NCBI GenBank assembly: GCA_963720265.1
Contig: CAVRET010000002.1
Span: 814,069 to 878,068 of the forward strand
Direction of reading: 5' to 3'
DNA: 64,000 nucleotides
DNA from: an uncultured bacterium
GTDB lineage: Bacteria > Patescibacteriota > Saccharimonadia > UBA4664
A model generated the notes under the pieces. It was not told the origin of the DNA, did not search any database, and worked only from the letters and a program-made list of their open reading frames with translations. The position numbers were made by a program, and so were the translations under genes. Below, piece after piece: positions 33,393 through 55,819 of this stretch; position 1 is the first letter of the stretch; each line of letters begins with the position of its first letter.

Positions 33393-33659
33393 TCAATATA
33401 CCTGATTATGCGAGCCAATATCTAGCAGCAAGTAATGATCTTCGGTCTCCTGATATACAACGCGCACATCTCCTCCTACTGAAAAAGCTCGAAGCCCTTG
33501 GAGCTTTCCCGTGAGTGGATGATCATTCAATGGCTCGCGTCTCACTCCATGGCGGAATAGCTCCAGGTGTTGTTTAAAACGATCTATCATTTTTGGCTGG
33601 CGAGCGTAACGCAGCTTGAGATGCTTTTGGAATTGCCGGGAATATTCAATTGGCTTCAT
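33393..33659 (-). CDS. type II toxin RelE/ParE family
   Basis: 88 aa basic protein (KLQGLRAFSVGGDVRVVYQETEDHYLLLDIGSHNQVY), overlapping the upstream antitoxin ORF by 14 nt. Confidence 0.75.
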   Translation of the reverse strand: MKPIEYSRQFQKHLKLRYARQPKMIDRFKQHLELFRHGVRREPLNDHPLTGKLQGLRAFSVGGDVRVVYQETEDHYLLLDIGSHNQVY

Positions 33660-33948
33660 CCGACAGCAGATCTTTCATGAAGTCGTCGACATCGTCGTAG
33701 ATCTTTACCTTGCCTTGACGGCGGAGGTCTTCATGTTCACTAATCTGCTGAGCATATCGGGCTTCGGCTTCAGGGCTGAGTCGCACCGATTCCTCGAGAT
33801 TGACCCTCCTGCCATCGACGTCGGCCTTGGCCAAGAAGCGAATATAGGCCTGGAGTGAGTCAAAGCCATTGCGGTGGGCGAAGTTTTCCCACTCATCGCG
33901 AATATCTTTATCTAGTGGTACTTGTAATTTAACTGTACTCATGCTCAT
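33646..33948 (-). CDS. cognate antitoxin (RelB/DinJ-like)
   Basis: 100-aa acidic protein immediately upstream of and overlapping the RelE-like gene. A promoter-like TTGACA lies at 33975-33980 (minus strand). Confidence 0.55.
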   Translation of the reverse strand: MSMSTVKLQVPLDKDIRDEWENFAHRNGFDSLQAYIRFLAKADVDGRRVNLEESVRLSPEAEARYAQQISEHEDLRRQGKVKIYDDVDDFMKDLLSDEAN

Positions 33949-33968: not shown

Positions 33969-34133
33969 TTATGTCAATGCCGTGCCTAAACTTTGTATAA
34001 AGCAAGCATAAGTGCCTTGGTGGGGCGTGAGGATAAGATGGCTGCCTCTTTGCCTAAGCTCGACGAAGCCACATTTCTTTAAGACTTTAACGACTTGGTC
34101 GGGCGATAGACTTGGTAGTGAGCCGTCGGGCAT
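33969..34133 (-). pseudogene. hicA toxin, 3'-truncated (diverges after SHLIL at the conserved-motif junction)
   Basis: The first 35 aa, MPDGSLPSLSPDQVVKVLKKCGFVELRQRGSHLIL, are about 85% identical to intact hicA at 43324-43560. The C-terminus is replaced by the antisense translation of the recurring motif AGCATAAGTGCCTTGGTGG (34005-34025). Confidence 0.6.
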
Positions 34134-34357
34134 TAAATAGCAACCTGGACACGGCCCTGCCAAATGTGGTCTTGGGGTAGTTCCTTGTGTTCGCTCTTCA
34201 ACGACTCAAGATATAGTTCGATAGCTTCGGTAATATTGATCTCGGCTTCTTCAAGGGTATTACCCTGGCTATAGCAGCCAGGCAGCGCAGGTACAGATGC
34301 CACAAAGCCACCTTCTGGATCGGCCTCATATATAACTGTGTAAACTTGAGTTTTCAT
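34133..34357 (-). CDS. HicB family antitoxin
   Basis: 74 aa, MKTQVYTVIYEADPEGGFVASVPALPGCYSQGNTLEEA. It is 90% identical to 43560-43784. The stop overlaps the hicA start by 1 nt. Confidence 0.8.
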   Translation of the reverse strand: MKTQVYTVIYEADPEGGFVASVPALPGCYSQGNTLEEAEINITEAIELYLESLKSEHKELPQDHIWQGRVQVAI

Positions 34358-34488
34358 AGATATATTTTACCATAGCAATGGTGGCTCGCCCGACTATTTC
34401 TGATTCAATTTTTTGGCTCCTTAAGGGGATAATTCCTGGTGGGGCGTAGTAGGTTCTGTTAGAACTGCGATTATGAATTCTGCGAGAC

Positions 34489-35538
34489 CTATTTGATCGA
34501 TACCCAATCATGAGTTTGGCTGCGGTGTTTTTCGGCCAAACCATGAATAAAAATGTTGAGTTTCAGCCTGGGCGTGAGCTGACCTTCCCTATCGCGATCG
34601 AACTCAATACCCCAGATTCTTGCACTGACATAATCATCGGCAACCTGGAGTTCTTCTCGTAACACCCTTTTAAGTGCATCGTCCAAAGCTTCTCCCTTGC
34701 GGACTTTGTCCATCAAATGGAGGCCGTTTTTTACGTTACGATAGAATTTGCGTTCGTGTTCGTCATCGAAGTCCCAGACATAGGGGTCAATGAAAACTTT
34801 ACGCTTGATATGGAGAGCATCGAATTGTGTATCGTTTACGAGCTTAGTTGATAGGCCATAAGATTGGTAGAAGCTTCTGGGTATAAGTCCAAGGTCGTAT
34901 TTGCGAGCAAAGTCCGCCATGGAGTCAGCGACAAGGTAGGAGAATTCTGGATTTGTCTGCTGGTTGTCTTTATCAACCACAAAGTCGAGCATAGCGTTGT
35001 TGAGGATATGGATCGACCCGTCACGCTTATGTTCTGCATAATAAGGGCTATAAATAACCAGCGCTTCGCGGCCATCACCGATTACTTCAAGACCTTCCGG
35101 GGCGAATCGAGGCGTGAAGTCAGATTGATTAAAGAACTCTGCGAGCGGTCGACTACGTCGAAAGTAACTGTGATCGAATGACAATCCAGGGTCTTGTGGT
35201 AGCCGGGCGCCGCTATGAAGATTTGAGTAGACGGCGAGCGACAACCGATTGGCGGCATAGCGGATTGAGTACATGATGTCGTCATGGCGCGGAATATCGT
35301 CTTCGTTTGATTTAAGATGAAGCATTTTGTCTTCAATCTTGAGTGCAACAAGAGCCCGTTCGTCGTAGATAAGCTGAGCCGTATCACCCTCAGATATTTT
35401 TGAGACAGACCAACGAGCTTCAATGTGACGATCCACCGGAAAGCTATTTAAAACATCGGCGAGCACGGACTTGAACTCCTCTAGCGCAGTTTCGGTGCTA
35501 GTTTCGAGCCAGTTTTGCTTAACCATAAGGTCAATCAT
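34489..35538 (-). CDS. hypothetical protein (349 aa)
   Basis: Long protein-like ORF with 42% GC. No family recognised by eye. Confidence 0.5.
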   Translation of the reverse strand: MIDLMVKQNWLETSTETALEEFKSVLADVLNSFPVDRHIEARWSVSKISEGDTAQLIYDERALVALKIEDKMLHLKSNEDDIPRHDDIMYSIRYAANRLSLAVYSNLHSGARLPQDPGLSFDHSYFRRSRPLAEFFNQSDFTPRFAPEGLEVIGDGREALVIYSPYYAEHKRDGSIHILNNAMLDFVVDKDNQQTNPEFSYLVADSMADFARKYDLGLIPRSFYQSYGLSTKLVNDTQFDALHIKRKVFIDPYVWDFDDEHERKFYRNVKNGLHLMDKVRKGEALDDALKRVLREELQVADDYVSARIWGIEFDRDREGQLTPRLKLNIFIHGLAEKHRSQTHDWVSIK

Positions 35539-35603
35539 AGAGATATTGTAGCAGGCCTTAGTATAATCTTGAGGCTACGAGCAGTAAAATAATCATAAGT
35601 GCC

Positions 35604-35909
35604 TTGGTGGGCAATGAGGCACGGCATCAGAACTTTTTGGGCGCCTCGAATGTTACCGAATTATACAATGCTTTGCAGGATTTTAAACCCAGGACCAAAA
35701 CTGAGACACGGAGGGTGCCGGCATTACAGCTATCCCCTGCTCGGCGTGGCCTCAATGTAGATAACTTGGTTGCCGACTATAATGCTGGCTGGTCTCTGCG
35801 GCAGCTGACAGACAAGCATGGTATTTGCCGGGAGACAGTGACGTTGCAGCTGCGGAAAGCCGGGGTGACAATACGACTGCGAGGTAGCAATATGCACCAT
35901 GAATGGTAA
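35604..35909 (+). CDS. repeated small HTH protein, intact copy B (101 aa)
   Basis: TTG/GTG start embedded in the conserved motif. Product ends GWSLRQLTDKHGICRETVTLQLRKAGVTIRLRG (HTH). Paralogous to 41873-42190 and to decayed copies at 38289-, 39410- and 53011-. Confidence 0.5.
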   Translation: MVGNEARHQNFLGASNVTELYNALQDFKPRTKTETRRVPALQLSPARRGLNVDNLVADYNAGWSLRQLTDKHGICRETVTLQLRKAGVTIRLRGSNMHHEW

Positions 35910-35925
35910 TTATATGTTGGTCGGA

Positions 35926-36408
35926 TTACTTGACGACTTTGGACATTCGAATGAGGTCGATTGATCCCCAAGGTGTCACCTGTCCAGTTTCGTTGAACCC
36001 GTGGTGCTCATAATACTTTTTTAGCCAGGGCGCTAGCGACATGTAGTCTAACTCTAAGAGGTTGACTTTAAGGCGTTTGGCATAGGCTTCAAGCGCGTTT
36101 ATTAGGGCGGTTCCGAGTCCGATTCCGCGGAATTGCTGTACGACCGTAAGCAATCCGAAGTGCAGACTCGACCCGTCCCGCTGCACATAGACGCAACCGA
36201 CAACTTGCATGCCGCGTTTTGCGATGTAGAATTCGCTTTCACTAATTCTTTGGCTTAGATGCTCACGGTCGGTGCGCGGCCCACCCTTGGCGGCGTCTTG
36301 GTATGCATAGGCCGCATTGATCATCGTCACGGTATCATCGATGTCTGCAGTTGTGATACGTCTTAAAGCGATGTCTTTGAACTCAAACAAGTTGGATAAT
36401 GTTGTCAC
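35926..36408 (-). CDS. GNAT family N-acetyltransferase
   Basis: VQQFRGIGLGTALINALEAYAKRLKVNLLELDY is the acetyl-CoA-binding motif A, Q/RxxGxG/A. Confidence 0.8.
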   Translation of the reverse strand: MTTLSNLFEFKDIALRRITTADIDDTVTMINAAYAYQDAAKGGPRTDREHLSQRISESEFYIAKRGMQVVGCVYVQRDGSSLHFGLLTVVQQFRGIGLGTALINALEAYAKRLKVNLLELDYMSLAPWLKKYYEHHGFNETGQVTPWGSIDLIRMSKVVK

Positions 36409-36419
36409 GAGTTCTAGGC

Positions 36420-36680
36420 TTATTTTGTGGACGCTTTATGGATTATTGACGCGGCAAGAGTCTGATAAGGTATTCCCTCTTCTATCGCCTTGGACTTGAG
36501 TCTGTAGAGATCACGCTCGGAGAGACGGATGTTTATATTTTTTGTCTTGTTGAGGGTGTTCCTGGCATAAGATTGCAGGAGCTTCTTACGTTTCTCAAGA
36601 TCTGGCGCGCTCGCGAGTTCACCGTTTTCGAACTCATCAAGAAGTTTTTGCTCTTCGTCTGATAGTTCATAGTAGTTCAT
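36420..36680 (-). CDS. BrnA-type antitoxin
   Basis: 86 aa with C-terminal NINIRLSERDLYRLKSKAIEEGIPYQTLAASIIHKAS, the BrnA/CopG-like pattern. Lies downstream of and overlaps the BrnT-like gene by 4 nt. Confidence 0.6.
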   Translation of the reverse strand: MNYYELSDEEQKLLDEFENGELASAPDLEKRKKLLQSYARNTLNKTKNINIRLSERDLYRLKSKAIEEGIPYQTLAASIIHKASTK

Positions 36681-36958
36681 GATTTATCTCCTTTTAAGTA
36701 TTGCTTGGTGGCTTTTCGTGATGGAATTATAGTTTTTAAGAATATCTTTTCGTTATCTTCGACGTATGGCACTAAGTAAACGTAATTATCTAAATTGACT
36801 ACTAGCTCTCGTTGCCCGGGGTATCTACCTTTATTGGGGTGTTCTAGGTCATCAAGTAACCTGTTGTCATCGATAGCAGCCAACACATCTTCGAACGAGA
36901 CTCCTCGTTCAGTCTTAAGCCGACTATTTTTAAACTCATCCCAGTCGTAGTATTTCAC
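36677..36958 (-). CDS. BrnT (DUF497) family toxin
   Basis: YDWDEFKNSRLKTERGVSFEDVLAAIDD matches the DUF497/BrnT N-terminal signature FEWDxxKxxxNxxKHGVSFEEA. Confidence 0.7.
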   Translation of the reverse strand: MKYYDWDEFKNSRLKTERGVSFEDVLAAIDDNRLLDDLEHPNKGRYPGQRELVVNLDNYVYLVPYVEDNEKIFLKTIIPSRKATKQYLKGDKS

Positions 36959-37046
36959 GATCCTATATTATGACAAAGCATATGGTTTGTAAATGTTCGA
37001 CAGACAAAAAAGAGACCCATGAGGATCTCCTTTTAGCATAAGTTCT

Positions 37047-37343
37047 TTGGTGGAGCTTGTCCGCCGTTACTCGAACCGCTACGACCTGCAGGAACGACTA
37101 TCAGATGCCAGGTCGGAGGCCAATCAACCGGCTGGACGAGAGCACGACGGCGACCAACCCGTCGTCAGCGGTCGAGTTCCAGGCACCTGGCGGGTGAGTG
37201 ACCGGCTGACGGACGCTGACATCCAGGTGCTCATCCGTGAGTTCCTGGCCGGTACGTCCAAGCGGGAACTAGCGGAACGATACGCAATCAGTGTGACCTC
37301 CGCGAAGAACATCCTGAGACAGCATGGCGTGAGACGCGCCTAA
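37047..37343 (+). CDS. small protein with resolvase/Hin-type C-terminal HTH (second motif-associated family)
   Basis: Starts at the TTG GTG inside a motif copy (37035-37053). The C-terminus, LTDADIQVLIREFLAGTSKRELAERYAISVTSAKNILRQHGV, is HTH_7-like. A truncated paralogue lies at 43834-43960. Confidence 0.45.
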   Translation: MVELVRRYSNRYDLQERLSDARSEANQPAGREHDGDQPVVSGRVPGTWRVSDRLTDADIQVLIREFLAGTSKRELAERYAISVTSAKNILRQHGVRRA

Positions 37344-37522
37344 CTCACGCTGGGGCCTTGACCTCGGCGTTTCGTGTCTCGGCCTGGATTCCGGGCCGGG
37401 GCACACCTCACTGGATCTGTGCGGGGCAACGCAACCTGGCCGAGCAAATGCTCCGGCGAGAACTGTCATTGCGGACTCTGAGTGCCTATACTGATGCTAA
37501 TAGATGGATAAAAAGGAACGCG

Positions 37523-38146
37523 ATGGGCATCGACAGTCTACCGAAATGGAAGATTACTACTGCAAGATATGTGGTTGACGACAAGTGGCTAAAAGTGCGC
37601 GCAGATACATGCCTTACTCCAGACGGCAAGACGCTGGACCCTTGGTATGTCATCGAATATCCGGAATGGATAAACTGTGTCGCGGTGGACAACGAATTTA
37701 ACGTGGCTTTGCTACGTCATTACCGGCATGGCGCCGATGAGTATGTGGAAGAGATTGTCGCTGGGACCGTTGAAAAAGATGATACCCCGATGGCCTCTAT
37801 AAGGAGGGAATTAGTTGAAGAAATAGGCTACCAGGGCGGTAATGTCTACCAAACCGGTGTTTCTTTTGCTAATCCGTCAAGCCAGAACAATAGGGTGTAC
37901 TCTTTTCTTGCCGCAGGCGGCACTTTTTCGAAATCGACATACAAAGAGACTGGTGCTGATTTCGTGATTGAAAAGCCTAAGTTTACAGATTTTGTCCAAG
38001 CCGTCACGCGCCTGGATTCAAGCGTCACATATCAGAGTCTGCATCTTACGGCCATATTCTTTGCGCTCAACTACATTAGGTATTCGAATGACCCAGGCCT
38101 TTTGGCGTTACGTAATGAGCTTTTGGCGATAAGCACTGAGCCTTAA
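37523..38146 (+). CDS. NUDIX hydrolase
   Basis: Nudix box GTVEKDDTPMASIRRELVEEIGY. ATG at 37523 with an AAAAGGAA RBS. The longer 37358 start adds an Arg/Trp-rich, non-homologous extension. Confidence 0.7.
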   Translation: MGIDSLPKWKITTARYVVDDKWLKVRADTCLTPDGKTLDPWYVIEYPEWINCVAVDNEFNVALLRHYRHGADEYVEEIVAGTVEKDDTPMASIRRELVEEIGYQGGNVYQTGVSFANPSSQNNRVYSFLAAGGTFSKSTYKETGADFVIEKPKFTDFVQAVTRLDSSVTYQSLHLTAIFFALNYIRYSNDPGLLALRNELLAISTEP

Positions 38147-38288
38147 CCTACTGTAAAAGTCTAGGTACCAAACGGGATTCGAACCGAGCGAATCCCGTGG
38201 CAGAGCCAAAAACTGATGATAAGCTGTCGGATAAAGCGTGGGTTCTTTCGGCCTAATTTTTGGCTTAGAGACGGTTGAACATTCAAAT

Positions 38289-38629
38289 TTGGTGGGCAAT
38301 GAGGGTTGGTATCAGAAGTTTTTGTGTGCCTCGAATGTTAGAGAATTGTACGATGCTCTGCAGGGCTTTAAGCCCCGGGCCACAAGCGAGGCACGGCGGG
38401 TGCCAGCATTGCAGCTCTCTCCCGCCCGGCGTGCACTTGATACCGACAAACTCGTCCGTGATTACAATGACGGTTGGTCACTGCGGCAGCTGGCCCGACA
38501 GAATGGGATCTGCCGAGATACGTGACGCTACAGCTCCGAAAGGCCGGGGTTAAGATTCGACCGCGAGGTAGCAATGTGAGCATAAAACAAGCAAAGAGCC
38601 GCCAGGTGGCAACTCAATGCTCCACCTAA
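38289..38629 (+). pseudogene. repeated small HTH gene, copy D, with a +1 frameshift
   Basis: Colinear with copy B, but GATACGTGACG replaces GACAGTGACG (a 1-nt insertion). This causes a premature TGA at 38525, while the HTH region continues in another frame to 38629. The 5' motif is partly deleted. Confidence 0.55.
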
Positions 38630-38633
38630 CGGC

Positions 38634-39260
38634 TCATGACGTAGGAGTGGGGTTCGAATACCGGATTGTGCGCATATGCCGTAGCACTTTGCGCATGTTG
38701 AGAGCGGGCTTAGCATCTGGATCAACCAGCAGTTCGAATGGGCGGACGGACAAGACGATAATCCGGCCATCTCGAAGCGCGTAGCGATTGCGCCGAAGGC
38801 GATCGATTGCGGCTTGCAGGTTCCAAGCTGAATGCAGAGCGATGCAGCCGTAGAGATTGTAGAAAACTACAGCTGGAATCAGGAACAGCAGACCGCTGGC
38901 AAATCTCAATTCCCATCGATGCTTCTGGACGAAGCTCGCATCTGACTTGCTGGTTGCCATAATGTCACGGTCCCGGTGGGCGGCCATAAAAGCGACGTTC
39001 ATGCTCACCAGAATGCACGCCAGCCATAGCCGGTTGGAGGTGATTAGCATGGGGACGCCCCGCACGCCTGCCTCCTCCATCGCAGGAAAGAGCATGGAGT
39101 AGCCAAGCAGGTGAATCGTTCGCCGGCGATTGTGGCGAATGAGCCATTCAGCTCCATGGCGCTCAAATCCGCGAGCCGTGACAAGCGTCTCGTAGGTCAG
39201 GCAGTACGTGAACCCCACGAAGCCAATCACAATCGCGACATAGATCTGGTGAAGGATCAC
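38634..39260 (-). CDS. CPBP (CAAX protease / Abi) family intramembrane metalloprotease
   Basis: Motifs EEAGVR (EExxxR), FMAAH (FxxxH) and HSAWN (HxxxN), in order, within a polytopic membrane protein. Confidence 0.65.
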   Translation of the reverse strand: MILHQIYVAIVIGFVGFTYCLTYETLVTARGFERHGAEWLIRHNRRRTIHLLGYSMLFPAMEEAGVRGVPMLITSNRLWLACILVSMNVAFMAAHRDRDIMATSKSDASFVQKHRWELRFASGLLFLIPAVVFYNLYGCIALHSAWNLQAAIDRLRRNRYALRDGRIIVLSVRPFELLVDPDAKPALNMRKVLRHMRTIRYSNPTPTS

Positions 39261-39409
39261 GGTGACCTCTTCCGGTATAGGAACTTCCTTACGGTTTGAG
39301 TATATTATAACATCGATTTTATAGAAACGTCAATTTCTATTCTTCATATCTGTACTCGAAAGGACCTTTTCGTCAAAAAGGAGAAAATACTAATTTAAAC
39401 ATAAGGGCC

Positions 39410-39731
39410 TTGGTGGGCAATGAGGCGCGGCATCAGAACTTTTGGATACCGAGACGGTCGCTGAATTATACCATGCACTGCAGAAATTTAAGCACCGGCC
39501 AATAGTGAGACGCGACGGATACCGGCTTTGCGGCTCTCCCCTGCCCGACGTGCATTAGATATTGGCAAACTCGCCGACGACTATAAAGCCGGCTGGTCTT
39601 TGCGACAGTTGGCCGATAAGAACGGTATCCACATGGAGACAGTGACACTACAACTGCGCAAAGTCGGTGTTGAGATTCGACCGCACGGATGTAGCGTACG
39701 GATTAACTCAATTAACTTAGCTCGCCGTTAA
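39410..39731 (+). pseudogene. repeated small HTH gene, copy E, with two 1-nt deletions
   Basis: The motif is intact (ACATAAGGGCCTTGGTGGG). The N-terminal third is disrupted by two single-base deletions relative to copy B. The C-terminal HTH, GWSLRQLADKNGIHMETVTLQLRKVGVEIRPHG, is still readable in ORF 39528-39731. Confidence 0.5.
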
Positions 39732-40343
39732 GAGCCCTATATTGCTCCCGACAAATTGCATCAACGGTTGTCCGATCGCATGTTGCCAAAATTGGGCCTG
39801 CTCTGCGGCGGTCATATCGGCGATACACTTACCGCTCGCCGGATCGATCTGAATTGACTCTATGGGATAGCCTTCAACAATATGCTGACTTCGGATGGCA
39901 GTGAATTGGCGCGGCGAGCGAATAGTTGCTTCCGCTATCCCTCCCTCAGGAGCTGCAATCGTAACGGCAAATTCCCAATGGCCCTTCATAGAACCGCCAT
40001 GACTTTCGACTAATTTGGCATAATAATTAAGCATTTCCCGGTCGCTCGGACGACCGGTACTACCGGGAATTCGACGCACATGCAGACCAGGCTGTTCGTC
40101 GTCTGGCAGACCATCCAGGTAGAGAGCATTGTCCATAGAGAAAACCGGCCTACCAGCTGCCCGGGCGTAGGCTCGGGCCTTGGCGCGAGCGTTCTCTGCG
40201 GCGGTCACTCCGTCTTCCGGTACTTCTAGGTTAATACCTAATTCGTTAATCCCACGCACAAGTACACCTAATGGTTCGAGTGTACCCTGCACTTGGTCGA
40301 TCTTGGCTTTGTTCTCAGTTCCAAATAGTAGCTCAACCGCCAT
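39717..40343 (-). CDS. Ham1/ITPase (non-canonical purine NTP pyrophosphatase)-like protein
   Basis: N-terminal LLFGTENKAKIDQVQ and a central SMDNALYLDGLPDDEQPGLHVRRIPG resemble RdgB/Ham1-family motifs. Assigned by pattern only. Confidence 0.45.
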   Translation of the reverse strand: MAVELLFGTENKAKIDQVQGTLEPLGVLVRGINELGINLEVPEDGVTAAENARAKARAYARAAGRPVFSMDNALYLDGLPDDEQPGLHVRRIPGSTGRPSDREMLNYYAKLVESHGGSMKGHWEFAVTIAAPEGGIAEATIRSPRQFTAIRSQHIVEGYPIESIQIDPASGKCIADMTAAEQAQFWQHAIGQPLMQFVGSNIGLLTAS

Positions 40344-40383
40344 GGGGCCTCCTTATTCCGCCGGACTAGCATATCCTATCAGC

Positions 40384-41118
40384 CTACACCTCAGGCTGAA
40401 ACTTGTTGCGACTCCAGTTCCACAAAACCGGATGGACTTGAGAAGGATTGATACCACTTCCCGTTAAAAGCTTCTCCCAGGCAGCTTCAACTACCAATGG
40501 GCTTGCTCCGGTAGGCACCAGCCCGAGTTGGACGCTGGACTGTATGACGTGAGTATCGGGAATAATTGAGATTTCTTGCGGATTGGTGAACTCGACATCC
40601 GTGTAACGTGATAGGATGAACGGCCAATAGTTTGATAATTTAGGGCCCGACAAATAGGGAAATCGCTTGCGATGAGTAACCTGTAGCAATTGGATCAGCT
40701 GGCCAGCATCATGGTGCGCTTCAGCAATAATGCGTCGGGGATCGTCTTCATAGAAATCATGCAGTGTCTGGGCAATAGTGGTCCAGATCAACGTGTGCTT
40801 GTTGGGCTGGAGGGCTAAGCGATATTTACCGAGGTCATCTCGGACTTGCTTAAGAGGTGCGTCCCCGAGTTTTTCAGGAAAGAAAACGTAGCGGGTGGTC
40901 TCGTCCTCGTAGGTTTTGAGCGCTGACGCCCACATGGCCGGAGAATTTCGTTGAAAGTTGATGCAGACAGGAAGCGTGAAGTAAAGATAGTTTTCGCGAC
41001 TGTTCAAATGTACGTTTGGATGGACTTCGTGCTGAGCAAGTGTTGGGATTAAGTGCTGGTCGTAGGAGGCCATTAGGCGCTTCACTCGACCTAATAGAAT
41101 GACTTGATCTTCTTCCAC
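40384..41118 (-). CDS. HhH-GPD superfamily DNA-glycosylase-like protein
   Basis: Helix-hairpin-helix FPYLSGPKLSNYWPFIL, followed by IPDTHVIQSSVQLGLV (cf. endonuclease III VDTHVFRVSNRLGL). Confidence 0.45.
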   Translation of the reverse strand: MEEDQVILLGRVKRLMASYDQHLIPTLAQHEVHPNVHLNSRENYLYFTLPVCINFQRNSPAMWASALKTYEDETTRYVFFPEKLGDAPLKQVRDDLGKYRLALQPNKHTLIWTTIAQTLHDFYEDDPRRIIAEAHHDAGQLIQLLQVTHRKRFPYLSGPKLSNYWPFILSRYTDVEFTNPQEISIIPDTHVIQSSVQLGLVPTGASPLVVEAAWEKLLTGSGINPSQVHPVLWNWSRNKFQPEV

Positions 41119-41160
41119 CGATTCATCATACCAAAAGGTGTAATCTTGGACCTGGTCGCG

Positions 41161-41523
41161 CTATTTAGTCAAAGGATTATGAAGCCGGAGCCCTTCAATT
41201 TTCTCGAAGTCTTCTGTATTGGCAGTCCAAAGCTCACAGTCCTGCTCTAGAGCTGTTGCCGCGATAATGGCATCCCCCAGACTCATTTTGCCTTGTTGCC
41301 GTAATTTAATAGCGCGTTGAATAGTGGCTTCATCAAGCTCAAGCTGCTCGCATTCGACAAAGAGTGCTTCAAGGTAGCTTTGCTCGGCCACGGTGATCTG
41401 CGCATAGCCCAAAGCTTCGATCTTGGTAATACTTCCGTAGGCAATGTCGGTGTCACCTAAGACGTCTGGGGCGATCCTGCCGTTGGCAAGGTAAATAAAA
41501 GTATTGGTGTCGAGTAGAATCAT
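41161..41523 (-). CDS. VapC (PIN domain) toxin
   Basis: MILLDTNTFIY...D at position 5, and the conserved acidic residues of the PIN fold. 120 aa. Confidence 0.8.
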   Translation of the reverse strand: MILLDTNTFIYLANGRIAPDVLGDTDIAYGSITKIEALGYAQITVAEQSYLEALFVECEQLELDEATIQRAIKLRQQGKMSLGDAIIAATALEQDCELWTANTEDFEKIEGLRLHNPLTK

Positions 41524-41526
41524 GGC

Positions 41527-41790
41527 TTACGGCCGGCCCGGCAGCGAGCGGTCTTGGCGTATATCCTTTTGCCAGCTCACCGGATTGGCAATAGTGTCAT
41601 AAGCGTTCAGTGTTTGCAGCTTTGCAATGAGACGTTTAATCTTCGCGTGATCTTGTTCTTTTTGCTTAACCGGTAAGCTTAGACTAACTTTATCGCCGGG
41701 AGTTAATTTGGCGGCGTCAGCATATTGCTTGGGCACACGGAGCGCGACGGAGTTCCCGGTTTTGATGACGGTAGCAGTGTATATATTCAT
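41527..41790 (-). CDS. AbrB/MazE/SpoVT-family antitoxin (VapB)
   Basis: MNIYTATVIKTGNSVALRVPKQYADAAKLTPGDKVSLSL is a swapped-hairpin beta-barrel motif. Stop lies 4 nt before the vapC start. ATG at 41790. Confidence 0.7.
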   Translation of the reverse strand: MNIYTATVIKTGNSVALRVPKQYADAAKLTPGDKVSLSLPVKQKEQDHAKIKRLIAKLQTLNAYDTIANPVSWQKDIRQDRSLPGRP

Positions 41791-41872
41791 GTATCTATTA
41801 TTGTATATATAATTTTGCGAGTCAACAATTACAACAAAAACGGCAACGAGGCCGTTTTTAAGCATAAGTTCT

Positions 41873-42190
41873 TTGGTGGGCAATGAGGCACGGTATCAGA
41901 ACATCTTGGGTGCCTCGAATGTTACCGAATTATACAATGCCTTGCAGGATTTCAAACTTCGGCCCAAGGGAGAGACGCGTAGGATTCCGGCGTTACAGCT
42001 GTCCCCTGCTCGACGTGCTCTGGATGTCAGCAAGCTGGCTAACGACTACCGGGATGGCTGGTCGCTACGGCAGCTGTCCCAAAAGAACGGTATTTGTAGA
42101 GATACTGTAAGATTGCAATTGCGCAAGGTCGGGGTACGTATTCGAGCTCGAGGCAGCAATGTCCGGATTAAGCAAGTGCCAATAAGGTAG
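41873..42190 (+). CDS. repeated small HTH protein, intact copy F (105 aa)
   Basis: About 75% identical to copy B. Preceded by the motif TAAGCATAAGTTCTTTGGTGGG and the hairpin AAAAACGGC(aacgag)GCCGTTTTT at 41836-41859. Confidence 0.5.
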   Translation: MVGNEARYQNILGASNVTELYNALQDFKLRPKGETRRIPALQLSPARRALDVSKLANDYRDGWSLRQLSQKNGICRDTVRLQLRKVGVRIRARGSNVRIKQVPIR

Positions 42191-42433
42191 CTCGGACAAA
42201 GACGAGGAGCGGGGGCTTTACTACAGCTGCGACTCGGCAAGTGCGACTATGCGATTAGCAATGTTTTCAACTGATTGATTGCCATCTATTGCCTTATCGA
42301 CTAGTCCGCTACGCCTTAATCGTTCGAACGTGTCAAGCTGCCGTTGGAGCCATGGCGTAGCGTCTTGGTAATTCTCGATTCGCATGCGCTGCTCATTGCG
42401 TTGGGCGAGCTGTTCGATAGTAAGTTGTGAACC

Positions 42434-42960
42434 ACCTCGGGCTAAAGCCCGAGGCTTCCTTGGGGCGGCATGCTGGGTTTAGCTTTCCATTGATTTTCGA
42501 TATACCGTTTAATCGCCTGCTCCGTGTTACGACCAACACTCTCGGCGAAGTAGCCATCCGCCCAGAAGCTATCTCCCCATAACCATTCTTCCAGTTCAGG
42601 ATGCGTCTGGCGGATAGCCCGACTTGATCCGCCCTTGAAGATTTGTACTACCTGTGACACCGAGATGCTGGGAGGTAGTTCAATAAGCATATGAATGTGG
42701 TCGGGCATCACTGCCAGCCGCTCAATCCACCAGTCGTTCATCTCTGCGCACTGAAAGAATAATCGCTTCAGGTCAGTGGCGACTTCGCCCCGCAGGATGC
42801 TTTTGCGGTACTTGGGTATCCAGACGATATGAAATTGCAGGCGATATAGCGTATGCGCACCGGAATAATATTTTTTACCTGACTTCACATACCCAGCATG
42901 CCAGACTGTCGGCGCCAGCGCCAAGGTTGGACGTCACCCGGTTTTGCCTTGGCGCTACCG
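42434..42960. mobile_element. IS200/IS605-family element (tnpA only) bounded by subterminal hairpins
   Basis: Hairpin CCTCGGGCT(aaa)GCCCGAGG at 42434-42453 and the GCGCCAAGG...CCTTGGCGC palindrome at about 42915-42960 flank a single Y1 transposase gene. Confidence 0.65.
42442..42924 (-). CDS. IS200/IS605 family Y1 (HUH) transposase TnpA
   Basis: HUH motif PDHIHMLIE and catalytic Tyr context KRYIENQ. YRLQFHIVWIPKYRKSIL is the typical N-terminus. Confidence 0.8.
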   Translation of the reverse strand: MALAPTVWHAGYVKSGKKYYSGAHTLYRLQFHIVWIPKYRKSILRGEVATDLKRLFFQCAEMNDWWIERLAVMPDHIHMLIELPPSISVSQVVQIFKGGSSRAIRQTHPELEEWLWGDSFWADGYFAESVGRNTEQAIKRYIENQWKAKPSMPPQGSLGL

Positions 42961-42976
42961 CCTTAAGCGGACCCAT

Positions 42977-43300
42977 TCATCCCTGGCCTAAAGGCCCAGG
43001 GGTCTCTGGGAGGGTTACGAGAAGGATTATCCTGAAACCGTTACTCCGAGCAGATTTAATTAGCTCTTCAGGAATGTAACTTGCAAAATAGACTACGGCA
43101 GGCCGGGAAATGATTTCTTTGGTGGTTTGCGGCACCAGTATTTCGTTCTTTAGCTTGTCGTCGGGCCATTCTCCCATATTGGCCTTCATGACCTCTTCAT
43201 CGGTTTCAGCGATATTGAGGTCTGTATGTTCGCGGAGGTAACGCAGAAGCGTCGATTTACCACCGGCGGAGGGCGCGAGAATGAGTAACTTGTATGCCAT
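42977..43300 (-). pseudogene. P-loop nucleoside/nucleotide kinase, N-terminal fragment split by the IS200 insertion
   Basis: Walker A LILAPSAGGKSTLL. The ORF ends abruptly (PETPGPLGQG) at the IS edge. A matching ~70-codon C-terminal remnant is readable on the minus strand at about 42228-42430, on the other side of the IS. Confidence 0.45.
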
Positions 43301-43323
43301 GCGTTAAGTGTAGCAAAGGGGAG

Positions 43324-43560
43324 TTATAGAAATTTTAAGAATTCGTCGATCGTTAGTTGCGCTTCCAATTCAATAATCTTTCTAAGCAATGGCTTTTTGA
43401 TGTCTTTGCCCCGGTGCATCGGCACGACCACCCGCTTGCCGGACTGTTCACTGAATAATATCAGGTGGCTGCCTTTTTGCCTGAGCTCAACAAATCCACA
43501 TTTTTTCAGAGCCTTCACGACCTTCTCAGGCGACAGGCTTGGTAATGGGCTTTCCGGCAT
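43324..43560 (-). CDS. HicA family toxin (intact)
   Basis: LPSLSPEKVVKALKKCGFVELRQKGSHLILFSEQSGKRVVVPMHRGKDIKKPLLRKII is full length with a conserved His. Confidence 0.85.
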   Translation of the reverse strand: MPESPLPSLSPEKVVKALKKCGFVELRQKGSHLILFSEQSGKRVVVPMHRGKDIKKPLLRKIIELEAQLTIDEFLKFL

Positions 43561-43784
43561 TAAATTGCAACCTGAACACGACCTTGCCAGATATGATCTT
43601 GTGGCAAATCCTTGTGCTCACTCTTCAGTGACTCAAGGTAGAGTTCGATGGCTTCGGTAATATTGACTTCTGCCTCCTCAAGTGTCTCGCCTTGACTGTA
43701 ACAGCCCGGCAAGGATGGAACAGAAGCGACAAATCCGCCTTCCGGGTCGGCTTCGTATATGACTGTATAAACCTGGGTATTCAT
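43560..43784 (-). CDS. HicB family antitoxin
   Basis: 74 aa, paralogue of 34133-34357. 1-nt overlap with the hicA start. Confidence 0.85.
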   Translation of the reverse strand: MNTQVYTVIYEADPEGGFVASVPSLPGCYSQGETLEEAEVNITEAIELYLESLKSEHKDLPQDHIWQGRVQVAI

Positions 43785-44055
43785 AGATCGATTTTACCAT
43801 AATGTGCAGCTTAGGGCCTTCATATAGCTATTAAGCATAAGTGCTTTGGTGGAGCTCGTCTGCCGTTACTGCAACCGTTACGACCTGCAGGAGCGGCTAA
43901 CGAAAGCCCGATTCAGAACGGCCAACGGCGAGAAGCGGGGCAGGTTAGTTAGGCCTTCAGTGTGAGCTCTAGGGTATCTTCCCCAGTCCGAAAATATGGC
44001 CGGGAAAATAAGCTGTCAGTACTTTAGTTCGAGCACTTACTGTAATCTTTGATTA

Positions 44056-44718
44056 ATGGCATCTTTTTTTGAGCTAATACGAGATGTGAGGCGCGGACGG
44101 CTTGTTGGCTGGACGCTCATAGCAATCGGGATATCGGGACTCTTCGGTACGAGGCTATACGCTCCCGCAACCCATGTACGAGCGCATATCGTTGAAAGCC
44201 AGGTTGTGACAAAGTCAGCGCCGAAACCAACTGTAAAGGAGGTGGCGGCTTATGCAGTGCCTCCATCTGATCCTAAGTTTATAGCGATCCCAGCGATCGA
44301 TTTAGGCAATACGCCGATACTGGCCTTTGGATTATCAGCAACCGGTACGATCGCGACCCCGAATTCGATTTATGAAACTGGTTGGTTTGACGGGAGTAGT
44401 AAACCCGGACAGGCCGGAGTGATGTTTATTTATGGACACATAGCGAGCTTTACGCCGTATAGCGTGTTTGCAAAGTTGCATATGCTCAGGCCGGGCGACG
44501 AGGTGATTATAACCAGGGGGGATAATACGATATTTCGCTACCAGGTTACAGGGTCTGAAACATACCCGTACAATGCGGTCGATATGAGCAGGGTGTTAAC
44601 TCCCGCAAGTGCGGGCATTCCAGCCTTAAACCTTATGACGTGTGCAGGGCAAATTATTACGGTTGGCGGGGTTAAAGAATACAGCCAGCGGCTAGTTATA
44701 TTTACGCAGCAGATTTAG
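44056..44718 (+). CDS. sortase (class E/F-like)
   Basis: N-terminal TM anchor. Catalytic His (MFIYGHIASF) and the Cys motif LNLMTCAG (TLxTC). Confidence 0.75.
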   Translation: MASFFELIRDVRRGRLVGWTLIAIGISGLFGTRLYAPATHVRAHIVESQVVTKSAPKPTVKEVAAYAVPPSDPKFIAIPAIDLGNTPILAFGLSATGTIATPNSIYETGWFDGSSKPGQAGVMFIYGHIASFTPYSVFAKLHMLRPGDEVIITRGDNTIFRYQVTGSETYPYNAVDMSRVLTPASAGIPALNLMTCAGQIITVGGVKEYSQRLVIFTQQI

Positions 44719-45892: not shown

Positions 45893-46331
45893 TTTTGTAC
45901 AAATGGTCTCCCGATAAACACTTATGGTAATTACTATAACTAAGTCCCATGGCCAGGCAAATAGGGACCGGTCCTCGCTGGCGTCTAGATGAAGCGGCTC
46001 GTTTGTCAGGACCGGCTACAGGGCCCGAGCGGCAGCGTTGCGGTCGCGTCGAGTAGAGTTTGGCGTTTTGCCTGATCTGAGGGCTCAAACGTACAGTTTT
46101 GCCAGGGAAACTCTGTGCTTTGATGCCACTGATTACGCAAAGATCCCGCCTGCTTGGGGCGGGATCTTTGGAGATACATCAAATTGGAGCGAACTTTATT
46201 TGCGTAGGGAGACGATTACGAGACCCGCAACCAGCGCGTGGCCAAGAGCTTTGAATCGCGGTTGCACGCGTTTGCGTGCCAGATAGGCATAAGTGCTTTA
46301 TTTGAGACGCCGTTTGTTTTAAGCTTGAGGC

Positions 46332-46682: not shown

Positions 46683-47344
46683 TAAGGAGCGGGCCTGGTC
46701 AACGTTGCCGTCGACCAGGCCCTCGCATCCTTTGCTAAGTTGTCATACCCCCCTACGGTGCCGTTGGATTACTGGCGAGGTACTCATTGATCAGAGCAGC
46801 GTACGCTGCCTGACCTTCTGCGTTGGGATGGAAGGAGTACTTCGGGTGGTCCACGTCGACATCGTTGAAGTACCCATCATCGCTACACAGGGTGTGGCCG
46901 ATGAATGGTGATCCATCCGCGTTCGCGTCTACGAACTCGAACGGAGCGCCGTACGTGCTCACTGCGCCTGAGACTGCCGCGTTGATGTCACTCTCGACGG
47001 TCTTGGCAGCATCCTGACTGGCGGTCGTTAGGTCGCCAGCGCAGGAGTTTGGCCATCCGACATCTGTAGCGGGCAGAATGTTCGGATAACCCACGACCAG
47101 GACGCGGGTGCCTGCTGACACATCCCCAGCTATGTCACCGAATAGTGTCGCCAGATCGCCAGGCAGGTAGTCATCGATGGCCGTCGTGATGTCCGCGTAG
47201 GCTGTGGTATCGGTACCACAGCCAACCTCAGGATCTACACACGAGGCGGCGAAGTCGCTGAAACCAACGTCGTCGCCGCCGACCGTCAGGATTACGTAGT
47301 CGTCACTGCTCGTGATGCCGTCGAGCTGGGTGGGCTCATCGTCC
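46683..47344. repeat. ~660-bp direct duplication, copy 1 (3' end and terminator hairpin of the SGNH-hydrolase gene)
   Basis: Identical, as far as inspected, to 50040-50701, including the hairpin GGCCTGGTCAAC(gttgcc)GTCGACCAGGCC and 197 codons. Confidence 0.75.
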
Positions 47345-53893: not shown

Positions 53894-53904
53894 TGGTAGA
53901 AATC

Positions 53905-54859: not shown

Positions 54860-54861
54860 AA

Positions 54862-55812: not shown

Positions 55813-55819
55813 AGTTTGA

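What the first reader, a model, noticed from the sequence alone, without database searches (positions are those of the whole stretch)
35604..42190. A repeated ~100-aa HTH protein family with intact and decaying copies
Copies B (35604-35909) and F (41873-42190) are intact, about 75% identical, and end in GWSLRQL..NGI..TV.LQLRK.GV.IR.RG. Copy D has a 1-nt insertion and a premature stop. Copy E has two 1-nt deletions. Copy I (53011-53373) is fused to a recombinase fragment. Most copies start with TTG or GTG and have weak or no Shine-Dalgarno. Copy F is immediately preceded by a bidirectional terminator-like hairpin that leaves no room for a promoter. Candidate roles are element-encoded regulator, recombination directionality factor, or the selfish core of the accreting units. 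The protein family is not one I can place by motif; it is loosely sigma-70 region-4 or resolvase-HTH-like.
Basis: seen in the sequence. Interest (0 to 1): 0.6.

Follow-up and report, generated by a model that had tools for sequence, protein, structure and literature searches.

The report
Detached recombinase tails bounding gene cassettes
The repeated small "HTH genes" are not free-standing genes: each is the detachable last ~100 codons of a mobile-element integrase (large serine recombinase) gene, begins exactly at that enzyme's recombination site, and eight such sites in a row delimit a decaying, integron-like string of toxin-antitoxin and small enzyme cassettes.

Summary
There are five copies of one ~100-aa HTH module (B and F intact, D and E frameshifted, I fused to a recombinase fragment). 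There is also a second subfamily (C intact, G truncated) and two site-only remnants (34005, 46288). The ORFs are real coding sequence (dN/dS 0.1-0.3).

Every copy, and every database relative, starts at the same point, a GGTGG core. That core is the crossover site of a clade of ICE-borne large serine recombinases (LSRs) whose attP lies inside their own gene. Unsplit genes read ...SK..MV|HTH. After integration into a tRNA 3' end the same gene reads ...SK..MV|tRNA-antisense tail (L007 vs L008; 69 of 85 homologues). The HTH modules are therefore the P' ends of such genes.

In the window, seven junctions share a 17-19-nt left arm plus the core and lie 1.1-2.5 kb apart. They bound cargo rich in toxin-antitoxin pairs, GNAT, NUDIX and Ham1 genes. 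Relatives attach the same module to different left flanks at the core.

Most likely this is a site-specific accretion array of recombinase-less units, now decaying; the window holds no active LSR and no tRNA. It is a new variant of known kinds (CIME/SCC accretion, integration-dependent gene truncation). How the array was assembled is inferred, not shown.

The parts
33393..33948 (-). Cargo left of site A: YafQ/ParE-type toxin (33393-33659) and upstream antitoxin-like ORF (33646-33948)
   Evidence: Pfam YafQ_toxin E=2e-12. An IS5-family transposase gene lies further left at 32401-33210.
34005..34037 (+). Site A: conserved left arm, GGTGG core and ~15 nt of an F-type P' arm. The HTH module is deleted and the site abuts a 3'-truncated hicA.
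   Evidence: Exact 19-mer match; sequence; HicA profile covered only for positions 2-32 of 58.
34024..35538 (-). Cargo of unit A: hicA' (truncated), hicB, and a 349-aa protein of unknown family
   Evidence: Pfam HicA_toxin, HicB_lk_antitox; 78% DNA identity to the second hicAB pair at 43460-43801.
35592..35909 (+). Copy B: left arm and core (35592-35610) plus intact F-type HTH module (ORF 35604-35909, 101 aa)
   Evidence: dN/dS versus F is 0.185. The same HTH+GNAT module occurs in L002, with DNA identity starting exactly at TGGTGG.
35926..36958 (-). Cargo of unit B: GNAT acetyltransferase, CopG-like antitoxin, BrnT toxin
   Evidence: Pfam.
37035..37343 (+). Copy C: left arm and core plus intact C-type HTH module (ORF 37047-37343, 98 aa, GC 62%)
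   Evidence: 52% identical (E=1.6e-23) to the C-terminal domain of the unsplit LSR P0087 and 36% to that of P0073.
37358..38146 (+). Cargo of unit C: NUDIX hydrolase
   Evidence: Pfam NUDIX.
38283..38602 (+). Copy D: degenerate left arm, core, and an F-type HTH pseudogene (1-nt deletion, premature stop)
38634..39260 (-). Cargo of unit D: Rce1/CPBP-like membrane protease, with its own strong promoter-like site at 39304-39333
39398..39713 (+). Copy E: left arm, core, and an F-type HTH pseudogene (two 1-nt deletions)
39717..41883 (-). Cargo of unit E: Ham1-like NTP pyrophosphatase, 244-aa unknown protein, VapC (PIN) toxin, MazE/AbrB-type antitoxin, then a hairpin at 41835-41860
   Evidence: Pfam; hairpin. 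The VapC region is 90% identical to L012, and the VapB-hairpin-left arm stretch is 94.6% identical to L011.
41861..42190 (+). Copy F: left arm and core plus intact F-type HTH module (ORF 41873-42190, 105 aa)
   Evidence: The AlphaFold model has an N-terminal helix plus a three-helix HTH (residues 52-85, pLDDT ~85).
42221..43784 (-). Cargo of unit F: 54-aa ORF, IS200-type Y1 transposase (an insertion), 107-aa ORF with a P-loop-like motif (read by eye; no Pfam hit), hicA, hicB
   Evidence: Pfam.
43834..43950 (+). Copy G: left arm, core, and the first ~70-100 nt of a C-type module, then unrelated sequence (truncated)
   Evidence: 87% identity to copy C over 43831-43899; sequence.
44056..45892 (.). 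Cargo of unit G: sortase (+) and a BNR-repeat surface protein (-)
   Evidence: Pfam.
46285..46300 (+). Last left arm (GGCATAAGTGCTTT), followed by ATTTGAG instead of the GGTGG core: the broken right end of the array
   Evidence: By my arithmetic the exact 12-mer is expected about 0.008 times by chance in 64 kb (both strands).
52051..53010 (+). Body of a large serine recombinase gene without its catalytic domain. It corresponds to aa 247-570 of full-length homologues and has GC 62% (GC3 72.5%).
   Evidence: 81% identity to P0005; Pfam Recombinase and Zn_ribbon_recom; no hit in the window to aa 1-246; composition.
53011..53373 (+). Copy I: core (ATG GTG G) and an F-like HTH module fused in frame to the recombinase body. 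GC is 53% (GC3 59%), so this is a hybrid junction made at the core.

Best explanation
The ~100-aa HTH ORFs are the 3'-terminal modules of large serine recombinase (LSR) genes carried by integrative conjugative elements. In this LSR clade the element's attachment site (attP) lies inside the recombinase gene, about 100 codons before the stop, and its crossover core is GGTGG, read as ...Met/Val-Val.

In the unrecombined state the gene encodes recombinase plus a C-terminal HTH domain. When the element recombines with a tRNA gene's 3' end (CCACCA, antisense TGGTGG), the HTH module is cut off and ends up at the far end of the element. There it starts at the core with no promoter or ribosome-binding site. 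The recombinase body reads on antisense through the tRNA.

The window holds eight such junctions in direct orientation between 34.0 and 46.3 kb, plus a ninth at 53.0 kb fused to a dead recombinase fragment. Seven of them share a conserved 17-19-nt left arm, which is most likely the vestigial last ~20 nt of a recombinase body, that is, the P half-site. I read the array as a product of serial site-specific accretion of small recombinase-less units, each laid out as core - HTH module - cargo - left arm. These units resemble cis-mobilisable elements, SCC-type pseudo-elements or integron cassettes. The array is now decaying through frameshifts, deletions and IS insertions.

Shown: the family is homologous to, and contiguous with, LSR C-termini; the core is the recombination junction; the first ~30 nt are under DNA-level constraint and the rest under protein-level constraint; relatives differ in what is joined at the core.

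Inferred: that the array was built by an LSR acting in trans; which site pairs recombined; and what the HTH domain does. My guess for the HTH is an accessory DNA-binding domain present only in the protein made from the unintegrated element, so that integration changes the enzyme.

The confidence given (0.7) is a blend: about 0.9 that the modules are detached recombinase tails starting at the att core, and about 0.55 that the array was built by accretion of recombinase-less units.
For: (1) Same enzyme, two states. P0073 and P0131 (669/701 aa) end ...GWSKAVVV|DLTWTYSN...HTH. P0132 belongs to the same >=90% identity cluster and ends ...GWSKAVVV|GDTGIEPVTSSV. At DNA level L007 and L008 are near-identical (about 90% over the 60 nt shown) up to GTCGTGGTGG and unrelated after it. 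In L008 an antisense tRNA-Val(cac) follows.
(2) In L005 the LSR ORF runs antisense through tRNA-Ala(ggc). 69 of 85 full-length homologues carry a tRNA-antisense tail after the SK..MV motif. P0073, P0131 and P0087 were classed as HTH tails, and P0080 (scored 'other') also carries a C-terminal HTH.
(3) L013 is an ICE integrated through a separate tyrosine integrase at tRNA-Gly. It keeps an unsplit LSR-HTH gene of uniform composition, whose tail is 52% identical to window copy C. P0111 aligns across both the body and the HTH of copy I.
(4) All relatives of the HTH family start their homology at 'MV.L', which is the core; their N-terminal extensions are unrelated to each other.
(5) The site looks like an LSR att site: a dyad centred on GGTGG, with a T(C/A)(N)GAAC-type distal motif starting at 17-19 from the centre (ending about 23-24) in the 6 of 7 recombinase-side arms and 13 of 16 HTH-side arms where the pattern matched (17 of 23 sequences when repeats are counted once, since L007 and L008 share one left arm and L003 and window F share one right arm), against 13-18 in all three tRNA arms. 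That is the 5-bp inward shift described for attB versus attP (PMC3783163).
(6) Coding and site constraints are separable. dN/dS is 0.1-0.3. Third-position identity is 0.85 in nt 1-30 and 0.40-0.54 beyond nt 90.
(7) The core is a junction in comparisons. L002 shares HTH+GNAT with window B from TGGTGG rightwards only. In L011, the 148 nt left of the core are 94.6% identical to the window, against 74% for the HTH module, and a different gene follows.
(8) Copy I joins a 62% GC body to a 53% GC tail exactly at the core.
(9) Array anatomy: 6 sites match the 19-mer where 0.04 are expected, spacing is 1.1-2.5 kb, cargo comprises 5 toxin-antitoxin pairs, GNAT, NUDIX, Ham1 and CPBP, and cargo genes have their own promoter-like sites.
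Against: There is no active LSR and no tRNA in the 64-kb window. The only LSR fragment lies downstream of the array rather than at its head. Canonical LSRs recombine only attP with attB, so a tandem P|P' array needs relaxed site pairing (as in CcrAB or TnpX) or another route. The left arm has no distal recombinase-binding motif at either the attP or the attB position, and its homology to the recombinase 3' end rests on a gapped 23-nt alignment. No circular or empty-site form was observed. Some mosaicism between relatives has breakpoints away from the core (L012). I could not retrieve a complete integrated element showing the recombinase-tRNA junction and the detached HTH at its two ends in one contig. 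The L005 left end is beyond the 10 kb I could fetch.
Confidence: 0.7

Rival explanations
1. The HTH ORFs are free-standing small DNA-binding proteins (element regulators or recombination directionality factors), kept in several copies because each unit needs one.
For: B, C and F are intact. dN/dS is 0.1-0.3. The model has a confident three-helix HTH. Most database members are annotated as ~100-170-aa proteins. In principle a detached C-terminal domain could still bind the recombinase or its sites in trans.
Against: Homology always begins at the recombination core. The starts are TTG/GTG inside the site with no Shine-Dalgarno sequence, and F is directly preceded by a hairpin. Two of five F-type copies are frameshifted, and one C-type copy plus site A are truncated. 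The purifying-selection signal is between anciently diverged copies (dS about 1 or more) and can stem from their life as recombinase tails. Unsplit genes show the module as a domain.
Confidence: 0.12
2. The array is the debris of several full-size integrative conjugative elements that piled up in tandem at one tRNA gene. Each was later cut down by random deletion to its first 1-2.5 kb. The units were never mobile as small cassettes.
For: The region is clearly decaying: frameshifts, truncated A/G/H sites, IS200 and IS5 insertions, a 5'-truncated recombinase and a 666-bp duplication. L002 keeps a ~60-nt in-frame remnant of the recombinase 3' end to the left of its core, which looks like an intermediate in such a reduction.
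Against: Random deletions would not leave the same 17-19-nt left arm at seven junctions while the adjoining modules differ by dS about 1 and fall into two subfamilies. Unit sizes are uniformly small. No conjugation or replication gene fragment survives in any unit.
Confidence: 0.2
3. These are ordinary insertion-sequence or transposon copies in which the HTH ORF is a transposase OrfA.
For: Weak Pfam hits to HTH_23, HTH_28, HTH_29 and HTH_Tnp_ISL3 (E = 0.007-0.09, all below cut-off).
Against: There is no adjacent OrfB or DDE gene and there are no terminal inverted repeats. The sequence to the right of each copy is unrelated cargo. The family is contiguous with serine recombinases, not transposases.
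Confidence: 0.02
4. This is a classical integron cassette array (IntI tyrosine recombinase with attC sites).
For: Short units, mostly co-oriented on the minus strand, rich in toxin-antitoxin pairs and GNAT genes, as in chromosomal integrons.
Against: The repeated element is a 300-bp coding module, not a 60-140-nt attC hairpin. Its site is an LSR-type dyad shared with tRNA-integrating serine recombinases. No Phage_integrase domain appeared among the 40 window ORFs between 29.7 and 63.6 kb that were scanned. Cassettes carry their own promoter-like sites.
Confidence: 0.02

Closest known systems
Site-specific accretion arrays: cis-mobilisable elements (CIMEs) next to ICEs in streptococci, and SCC composite islands in staphylococci
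   Same: Tandem units in direct orientation are separated by copies of the att site. Many units lack any recombinase and would depend on one supplied in trans. The SCC case uses large serine recombinases (CcrAB/CcrC) with relaxed site pairing. Copy I gives weak NCBIfam hits to CcrC and CcrB (E = 5e-8 and 0.01, far below cut-off). The CIME concept is reviewed in PMC5704250 (listed); the details here are from my own knowledge.
   Different: Here each junction carries a ~300-bp protein-coding module that is the tail of the recombinase gene itself, not the end of a host gene (fda, rlmH). Units are only 1.1-2.5 kb. The host is a ~50% GC organism outside the Firmicutes.
Integration-dependent gene truncation: mycobacteriophage integration-dependent immunity (attP inside the repressor gene) and SSV1-type integrases (attP inside the int gene)
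   Same: attP lies inside an ORF of the element, so integration into a tRNA gene changes or removes the C-terminus of the product (PMC9262239; PMC8371274, listed).
   Different: Those systems use tyrosine integrases. In the phages the gene affected is the repressor, which loses a degradation tag. In SSV1 the integrase is split into two large parts. Here a serine recombinase loses a discrete ~100-aa HTH domain and gains a tRNA-antisense tail. I found no description of this in the searched literature.
Large serine integrases with defined attP/attB architecture (A118/LI, Bxb1, phiC31)
   Same: Recombinase domain, zinc ribbon and coiled coil are present. The sites are ~50-bp dyads, and the distal motif is shifted 5 bp inward in the tRNA (attB-type) arms (rule from PMC3783163).
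   Different: Those enzymes have attP outside the gene, no C-terminal HTH domain, mostly protein-gene targets, and strict attP x attB pairing.
Chromosomal integrons
   Same: In function, the region looks like an array of small, mostly co-oriented cassettes rich in toxin-antitoxin pairs and acetyltransferases, each ending in a recombination site.
   Different: The recombinase family differs (serine versus tyrosine), as do the site type (duplex dyad with a coding module versus a folded single-stranded attC) and expression (own promoters versus Pc).
Pfam HTH_58 (PF19575)
   Same: It is the best profile match for the C-terminal 45 residues (E about 1e-4). P0127 and P0128 carry the precomputed annotation.
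   Different: Window copies score 22.2-22.7 bits against a cut-off of 23.8. The N-terminal 50 residues, including the core-encoded start, are not covered.

Membership tests
C-terminal module of a large serine recombinase gene with intragenic attP | The module is contiguous and in frame with an LSR body (Resolvase + Recombinase + Zn_ribbon_recom) in unrecombined genes | tested here: met
   P0073, P0131, P0080, P0087, P0111 and window copy I. L013 and L007 are compositionally uniform across the junction.
C-terminal module of a large serine recombinase gene with intragenic attP | The same recombinase is found with the module replaced by target (tRNA) sequence, with the breakpoint at the module's first codons | tested here: met
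   P0073 versus P0132, and L007 versus L008 with tRNA-Val; L005 with tRNA-Ala; 69 of 85 homologues have tRNA-antisense tails.
C-terminal module of a large serine recombinase gene with intragenic attP | The detached module sits at the opposite end of the same integrated element (attL side) | tested here: inconclusive
   L003 (a host gene directly left of core+HTH) and L001 fit this. No contig held both ends of one element, and the L005 left end lies beyond the 10 kb fetched.
LSR attachment site | A ~40-50-bp imperfect dyad around a central crossover, with the distal (zinc-ribbon) motif 5 bp closer to the centre in attB-type arms | tested here: met
   Where the pattern matched, the motif starts at 17-19 from the centre (ending about 23-24) in recombinase-side and HTH-side arms, against 13-18 in all three tRNA arms. 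The rule is from PMC3783163. The left arms of the window array do NOT show the distal motif at either position.
LSR attachment site | A cognate, catalytically complete recombinase is encoded nearby | tested here: not met
   Only aa 247-570 of an LSR are present (52051-53010). The window has no match to the catalytic domain.
Accretion array of cis-mobilisable (recombinase-less) units | Units are bounded by att sites in direct orientation and lack recombination and transfer genes | tested here: met
   Sites lie at 34005, 35592, 37035, ~38283, 39398, 41861, 43834 and 46285, all on the + strand. Cargo was checked by Pfam.
Accretion array of cis-mobilisable (recombinase-less) units | Units excise or integrate at the att sites when a recombinase is supplied | not testable with these tools
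   Only indirect evidence: relatives differ in what is joined at the core. A second assembly of the same strain is identical.
Pfam HTH_58 (PF19575) | Score at or above the gathering threshold (23.8 bits) | tested here: not met
   22.2 (B), 22.7 (F), 22.6 (E part) and 17.9 (I) bits.
IS transposase OrfA | A match to a transposase HTH family above threshold, an adjacent catalytic ORF and terminal inverted repeats | tested here: not met
   All transposase-HTH hits are below cut-off. Neighbouring genes are unrelated cargo. The only repeats found are the att sites.
Integron | An IntI tyrosine recombinase with attI at the head of the array, and attC sites between cassettes | tested here: not met
   No Phage_integrase hit among the 40 window ORFs between 29.7 and 63.6 kb that were scanned. 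The junctions are coding modules with an LSR-type dyad. The rest of the 1.1-Mb contig was not available.
Recombination directionality factor of a serine integrase | A separately expressed small protein that acts on the integrase to permit attL x attR recombination | not testable with these tools
   No expression signals are visible upstream. No sequence or fold match to known RDFs appeared: Foldseek against PDB gave nothing at E <= 0.001.

The most novel reading that the evidence does not exclude
This is a serine-recombinase counterpart of the integron. The recombinase gene itself contains the docking site. Small cassettes carrying cargo insert there, and each brings a replacement C-terminal HTH domain that restores the recombinase reading frame, just as tRNA-targeting islands bring a replacement tRNA end. 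Displaced tails pile up as a tandem record of past insertions. A corollary is that swapping the tail (HTH versus tRNA-antisense peptide) is a built-in switch that makes the enzyme differ between the free and the integrated state of the element.
Probability: 0.3. Interest if true: 0.85.

Novelty: new variant of a known kind. Interest (0 to 1): 0.66.

Why it matters
If the reading is right, three things follow.

(1) Annotation. Hundreds of "recombinase family proteins" in actinobacterial and related genomes have C-termini that are translated tRNA antisense (…GFEPLT, …GIEPVTSSV). Many ~100-aa "hypothetical HTH proteins" are orphaned recombinase tails. Both features mark element ends to the base pair.

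(2) Mechanism. A serine integrase that loses a DNA-binding domain on integration is a natural experiment in directionality control. That question is central for these enzymes, which are widely used as genome-engineering tools. The paired unsplit and split forms (for example L007 and L008) give ready-made attP, attB and attR sequences to test.

(3) Evolution. An array of recombinase-less cargo units bounded by serine-recombinase sites would show that cassette capture of the integron kind has arisen on a second, unrelated recombinase scaffold.

Tried and rejected
- Rfam at gathering thresholds found nothing in the window, and ARAGORN found no tRNA. I had expected a tRNA at one end of the array.
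The family is so far seen only in this genome and in metagenomes.
- The metagenome scan gave only two loci.
- The window's own recombinase protein is not in the contig index. The second contig carrying P0126 is the same strain (100% identity over 9104 bp), so it gave no polymorphism data.
- I searched for the far end of the L005 element (the detached HTH). It is not within the 10 kb I could fetch.
- Foldseek of the AlphaFold model against PDB gave nothing at E <= 0.001. The top weak hits are gamma-delta/Tn3 resolvase (helix E plus HTH), which I do not use as evidence.
- I considered whether the conserved left arm is a promoter for the minus-strand cargo. I rejected this because the hexamer spacing does not fit, and promoter-like sites lie between each cargo start and the arm.
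- I considered whether the left arm is a tRNA trailer (attB-type arm). It is unresolved, since the arm carries no distal motif at the attB position.
- A possible extra core at ~32365 (CCTGGTGGT) was rejected as a chance 9-mer that probably lies inside the IS5 copy.
- Five literature searches found no prior description of a serine recombinase with an intragenic attP. That is absence within one library, not proof of novelty.

Full report
**1. What is in the window**

A self-comparison and a tblastn with copy F confirm five related ~300-bp segments on the + strand:
- B, 35590-35909
- D, 38288-38600
- E, 39394-39713
- F, 41859-42190
- I, 53034-53310

B and F are intact ORFs of 101 and 105 aa, 76% identical in nt and 74.5% in aa. 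E has two 1-nt deletions. D has one 1-nt deletion (not an insertion) followed by a stop. I is the in-frame tail of a 470-aa ORF (51961-53373).

First, there is a second, unrelated-looking HTH ORF subfamily: C (37047-37343, intact) and G (from 43834, truncated after ~70-100 nt). Second, all copies have the same sharp left boundary...TTAAGCATAAGTGCCTT-GGTGG. The 19-mer occurs six times with at most 3 mismatches against 0.04 expected. A degenerate copy precedes D, and a left arm without the core sits at 46285-46300. Site A (34005) has the arm, the core and ~15 nt of the module, then runs straight into a truncated hicA.

**2. The ORFs are real coding sequence, but their 5' end is a DNA site**

Among intact copies from the window and four metagenomic contigs, dN/dS is 0.10-0.33 with a clear third-position excess; B versus F gives 22/15/43 differences at positions 1/2/3.

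B and F differ by dS of about 1, so they are not recent duplicates. Third-position identity among eight F-type copies is 0.85 in nt 1-30, 0.64 in nt 31-90 and 0.40-0.54 beyond. So the first ~30 nt are constrained as DNA and the rest as protein.

Pfam gives only a sub-threshold HTH_58 match for the last 45 residues (22.2-22.7 bits against a 23.8 cut-off) and weak generic HTH hits. NCBIfam gives nothing useful. An AlphaFold model shows a long N-terminal helix of low confidence and a three-helix HTH (residues 52-85, pLDDT about 85). Foldseek against PDB finds nothing at E <= 0.001.

**3. The family is the C-terminal domain of a clade of large serine recombinases, and the shared left boundary is their crossover site**

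The body of the copy-I ORF is ~80% identical to many full-length LSRs (Resolvase + Recombinase + Zn_ribbon_recom), but those cover only 69% of it. Their C-termini explain why. After a conserved ...G(S/W)SK..MV they continue as ELRGFEPLT..., GATGFEPVT... or GDTGIEPVTSSV..., which is the translation of a tRNA gene read antisense.

In L005 the ORF indeed runs through tRNA-Ala(ggc) on the opposite strand. A minority continue instead into an HTH domain: P0073, P0080, P0087, P0111 and P0131.

P0073/P0131 and P0132 belong to one >=90% identity cluster. They are identical in sequence through ...GWSKAVVV, and then read DLTWTYSN...HTH versus GDTGIEPVTSSV. At DNA level the two contigs match up to GTCGTGGTGG and are unrelated after it. 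In L008 what follows is tRNA-Val(cac) and chromosomal genes; in L007 it is the HTH domain and element cargo.

Of 85 full-length homologues, 69 have tRNA-type tails. Three were classed as HTH tails, and P0080, scored 'other', also ends in an HTH.

L013 shows the unrecombined state inside a chromosome. It is an ICE (FtsK/TraB-like, Replic_Relax, XRE plus ImmA) integrated through a separate tyrosine integrase at tRNA-Gly. It keeps a complete LSR-HTH gene whose tail is 52% identical (E = 1.6e-23) to window copy C. P0111 aligns over both the body and the HTH of copy I, and its second HTH unit matches B, E and F.

An exhaustive profile search found ~10 further clusters of full-length relatives. All start their homology at 'MV.L', with unrelated N-terminal extensions. 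The C-terminal 50-aa HTH unit alone recurs in many multi-repeat proteins.

**4. The site behaves like an LSR att site**

I took the centre just after GGTGG. A T(C/A)(N)GAAC-type motif then starts at 17-19 from the centre (ending about 23-24) in 6 of 7 recombinase-side (P) arms and 13 of 16 HTH-side (P') arms. In the three tRNA (B') arms it starts at 13.

This is the 5-bp inward displacement of the zinc-ribbon-domain motif described for attB relative to attP (PMC3783163). The unsplit genes carry clear dyads, for example GGTTGGAGTAAGG-N24-CCTACTCCAACC in L007.

**5. The core is a junction in comparisons with relatives**

L002 shares ~80% DNA identity with window B across the HTH module and the following GNAT gene. 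The identity starts exactly at TGGTGG. To the left, L002 has a ~60-nt in-frame remnant of a recombinase 3' end (...GSDNHAMV), whereas the window has the short left arm and unrelated cargo.

L011, from a close relative, is 94.6% identical to the window over the 148 nt left of F's core (VapB start, hairpin, left arm). It is only 74% identical over the HTH module (dS 1.6) and has a different gene downstream. The drop in identity sets in ~80 nt inside the module, because that stretch is conserved in all F-type copies.

Copy I joins a 62% GC (GC3 72.5%) recombinase body to a 53% GC (GC3 59%) tail at the core. Copy C has the high GC of the body. Copy I is therefore a hybrid made by recombination at the core, kept in frame because the core has the same codon phase everywhere.

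**6. The array**

Between 34.0 and 46.3 kb, eight junctions in direct orientation lie 1.1-2.5 kb apart. Units read: core - HTH module - cargo - left arm. The cargo is:
- YafQ/ParE-type toxin plus antitoxin
- hicAB, twice
- CopG-like antitoxin plus BrnT
- VapC plus a MazE-like antitoxin
- GNAT acetyltransferase, NUDIX, Ham1 and a CPBP-like protease
- two proteins of unknown family
- a sortase with a BNR-repeat protein
- an inserted IS200

Most cargo is on the minus strand, with promoter-like sites of its own between the gene start and the left arm. No unit contains recombination, replication or transfer genes.

The window has no tRNA and no catalytic serine-recombinase domain. The only LSR fragment starts at the equivalent of residue 247, next to a region with a 666-bp perfect duplication and a broken IS5 copy.

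**7. Interpretation**

Sections 3-5 establish that the HTH ORFs are P'-side ends of LSR genes with an intragenic attP. I hold this at about 0.9.

How the array arose is inferred. The uniform 17-19-nt left arm sits next to modules of two subfamilies that differ by dS of about 1. That argues that the arm is itself a selected recombination half-site carried by each unit. It aligns, with two 2-nt gaps, to the last ~20 nt of the recombinase body (about 17 of 23), and L002 shows a longer remnant of the same kind. I therefore read the units as recombinase-less derivatives that keep a complete P|P' site, assembled by site-specific accretion. This is analogous to CIMEs or SCC pseudo-elements, and in function to integron cassettes. 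I hold this at about 0.55.

The main alternative is random reduction of stacked full-size ICEs (about 0.2).

Difficulties with my reading:
- Canonical LSRs pair only attP with attB.
- The left arm lacks the distal motif.
- The recombinase fragment lies on the wrong side of the array.
- No excised form was seen.

The function of the HTH domain is unknown. The attractive hypothesis is that its loss on integration changes the enzyme's activity or direction. That rests only on analogy with integration-dependent immunity in mycobacteriophages (PMC9262239) and SSV-type integrase partition (PMC8371274).

**8. Novelty and verdict**

Five full-text searches found no description of serine recombinases with an intragenic attP or of such arrays.

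The components are known kinds: an LSR, tRNA targeting, accretion, and attP inside a gene. The combination is a new variant. The finding is real and more interesting than "a repeated HTH family". It identifies the family, explains its odd starts and its decay, and yields testable att sites. The mechanism of array formation remains open.

Noticed in passing
window 46683-47348 and 50040-50705: A 666-bp perfect (100%) direct duplication. It copies the 3' part of the PD40 + GDSL-lipase gene (50110-51855) to a position next to a frameshifted IS5-like transposase (47336-47955). It points to recent rearrangement between the array and the recombinase fragment.
   Followed up: partly
window 53384-56932: Directly right of copy I lies a tight co-directional run of nucleotide 'house-cleaning' genes: AAA_33 kinase, HD_3 phosphohydrolase, MazG, Ppx/GppA, NUDIX, ASCH. 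The array cargo also contains NUDIX and Ham1 genes, so there is a recurrent theme of nucleotide-pool sanitation or signalling.
   Followed up: partly
window 57897-63592: Three co-directional genes: a DEAD/Lhr-like helicase, a BrxC/BrxD-family ATPase (E = 8e-132) and a TM2 + TerB_C protein. This is a candidate phage-defence trio and was not examined further.
   Followed up: no
window 44702-45892: A BNR/Asp-box repeat protein gene with ~135-bp internal tandem repeats at 71-77% identity. It overlaps a sortase gene (44056-44718) tail to tail.
   Followed up: no
window ~22000: GC content falls from ~59% (1-22 kb) to ~50% (22-64 kb). The boundary was not analysed.
   Followed up: no
window 3734-3798 and 4580-4644: A 65-bp perfect direct repeat in the high-GC part of the window.
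   Followed up: no
L013 10001-13632: An ICE with two recombinases. It has an unsplit serine recombinase-HTH gene, followed by an Xis-like HTH_17 gene and a tyrosine integrase whose 3' end overlaps tRNA-Gly(gcc). The element has 58-64% GC in a host flank of 47-51% GC.
   Followed up: partly
proteins P0133-P0280: The ~50-aa HTH unit of the family (…Y..G.S…LA.KYGVS..T…L…GV..R) occurs as 4-11 tandem repeats in hundreds of otherwise unrelated proteins of up to 836 aa. Their role is unknown.
   Followed up: no
window HTH ORFs, nt 31-90 of each F-type copy (e.g. 41903-41962): Synonymous-site conservation stays elevated (0.64 against ~0.45) well beyond the ~25-bp half-site expected for a serine recombinase. 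There may be an additional DNA-level signal inside the module.
   Followed up: partly
L004 71-435: The recombinase 3' end and the HTH module are adjacent but 1 nt out of frame, because the left arm is one base shorter. This is either a hybrid junction or a dead gene. Downstream cargo includes a large ORF that looks like a DNA methyltransferase by eye and a 635-aa ORF, neither profile-checked.
   Followed up: partly
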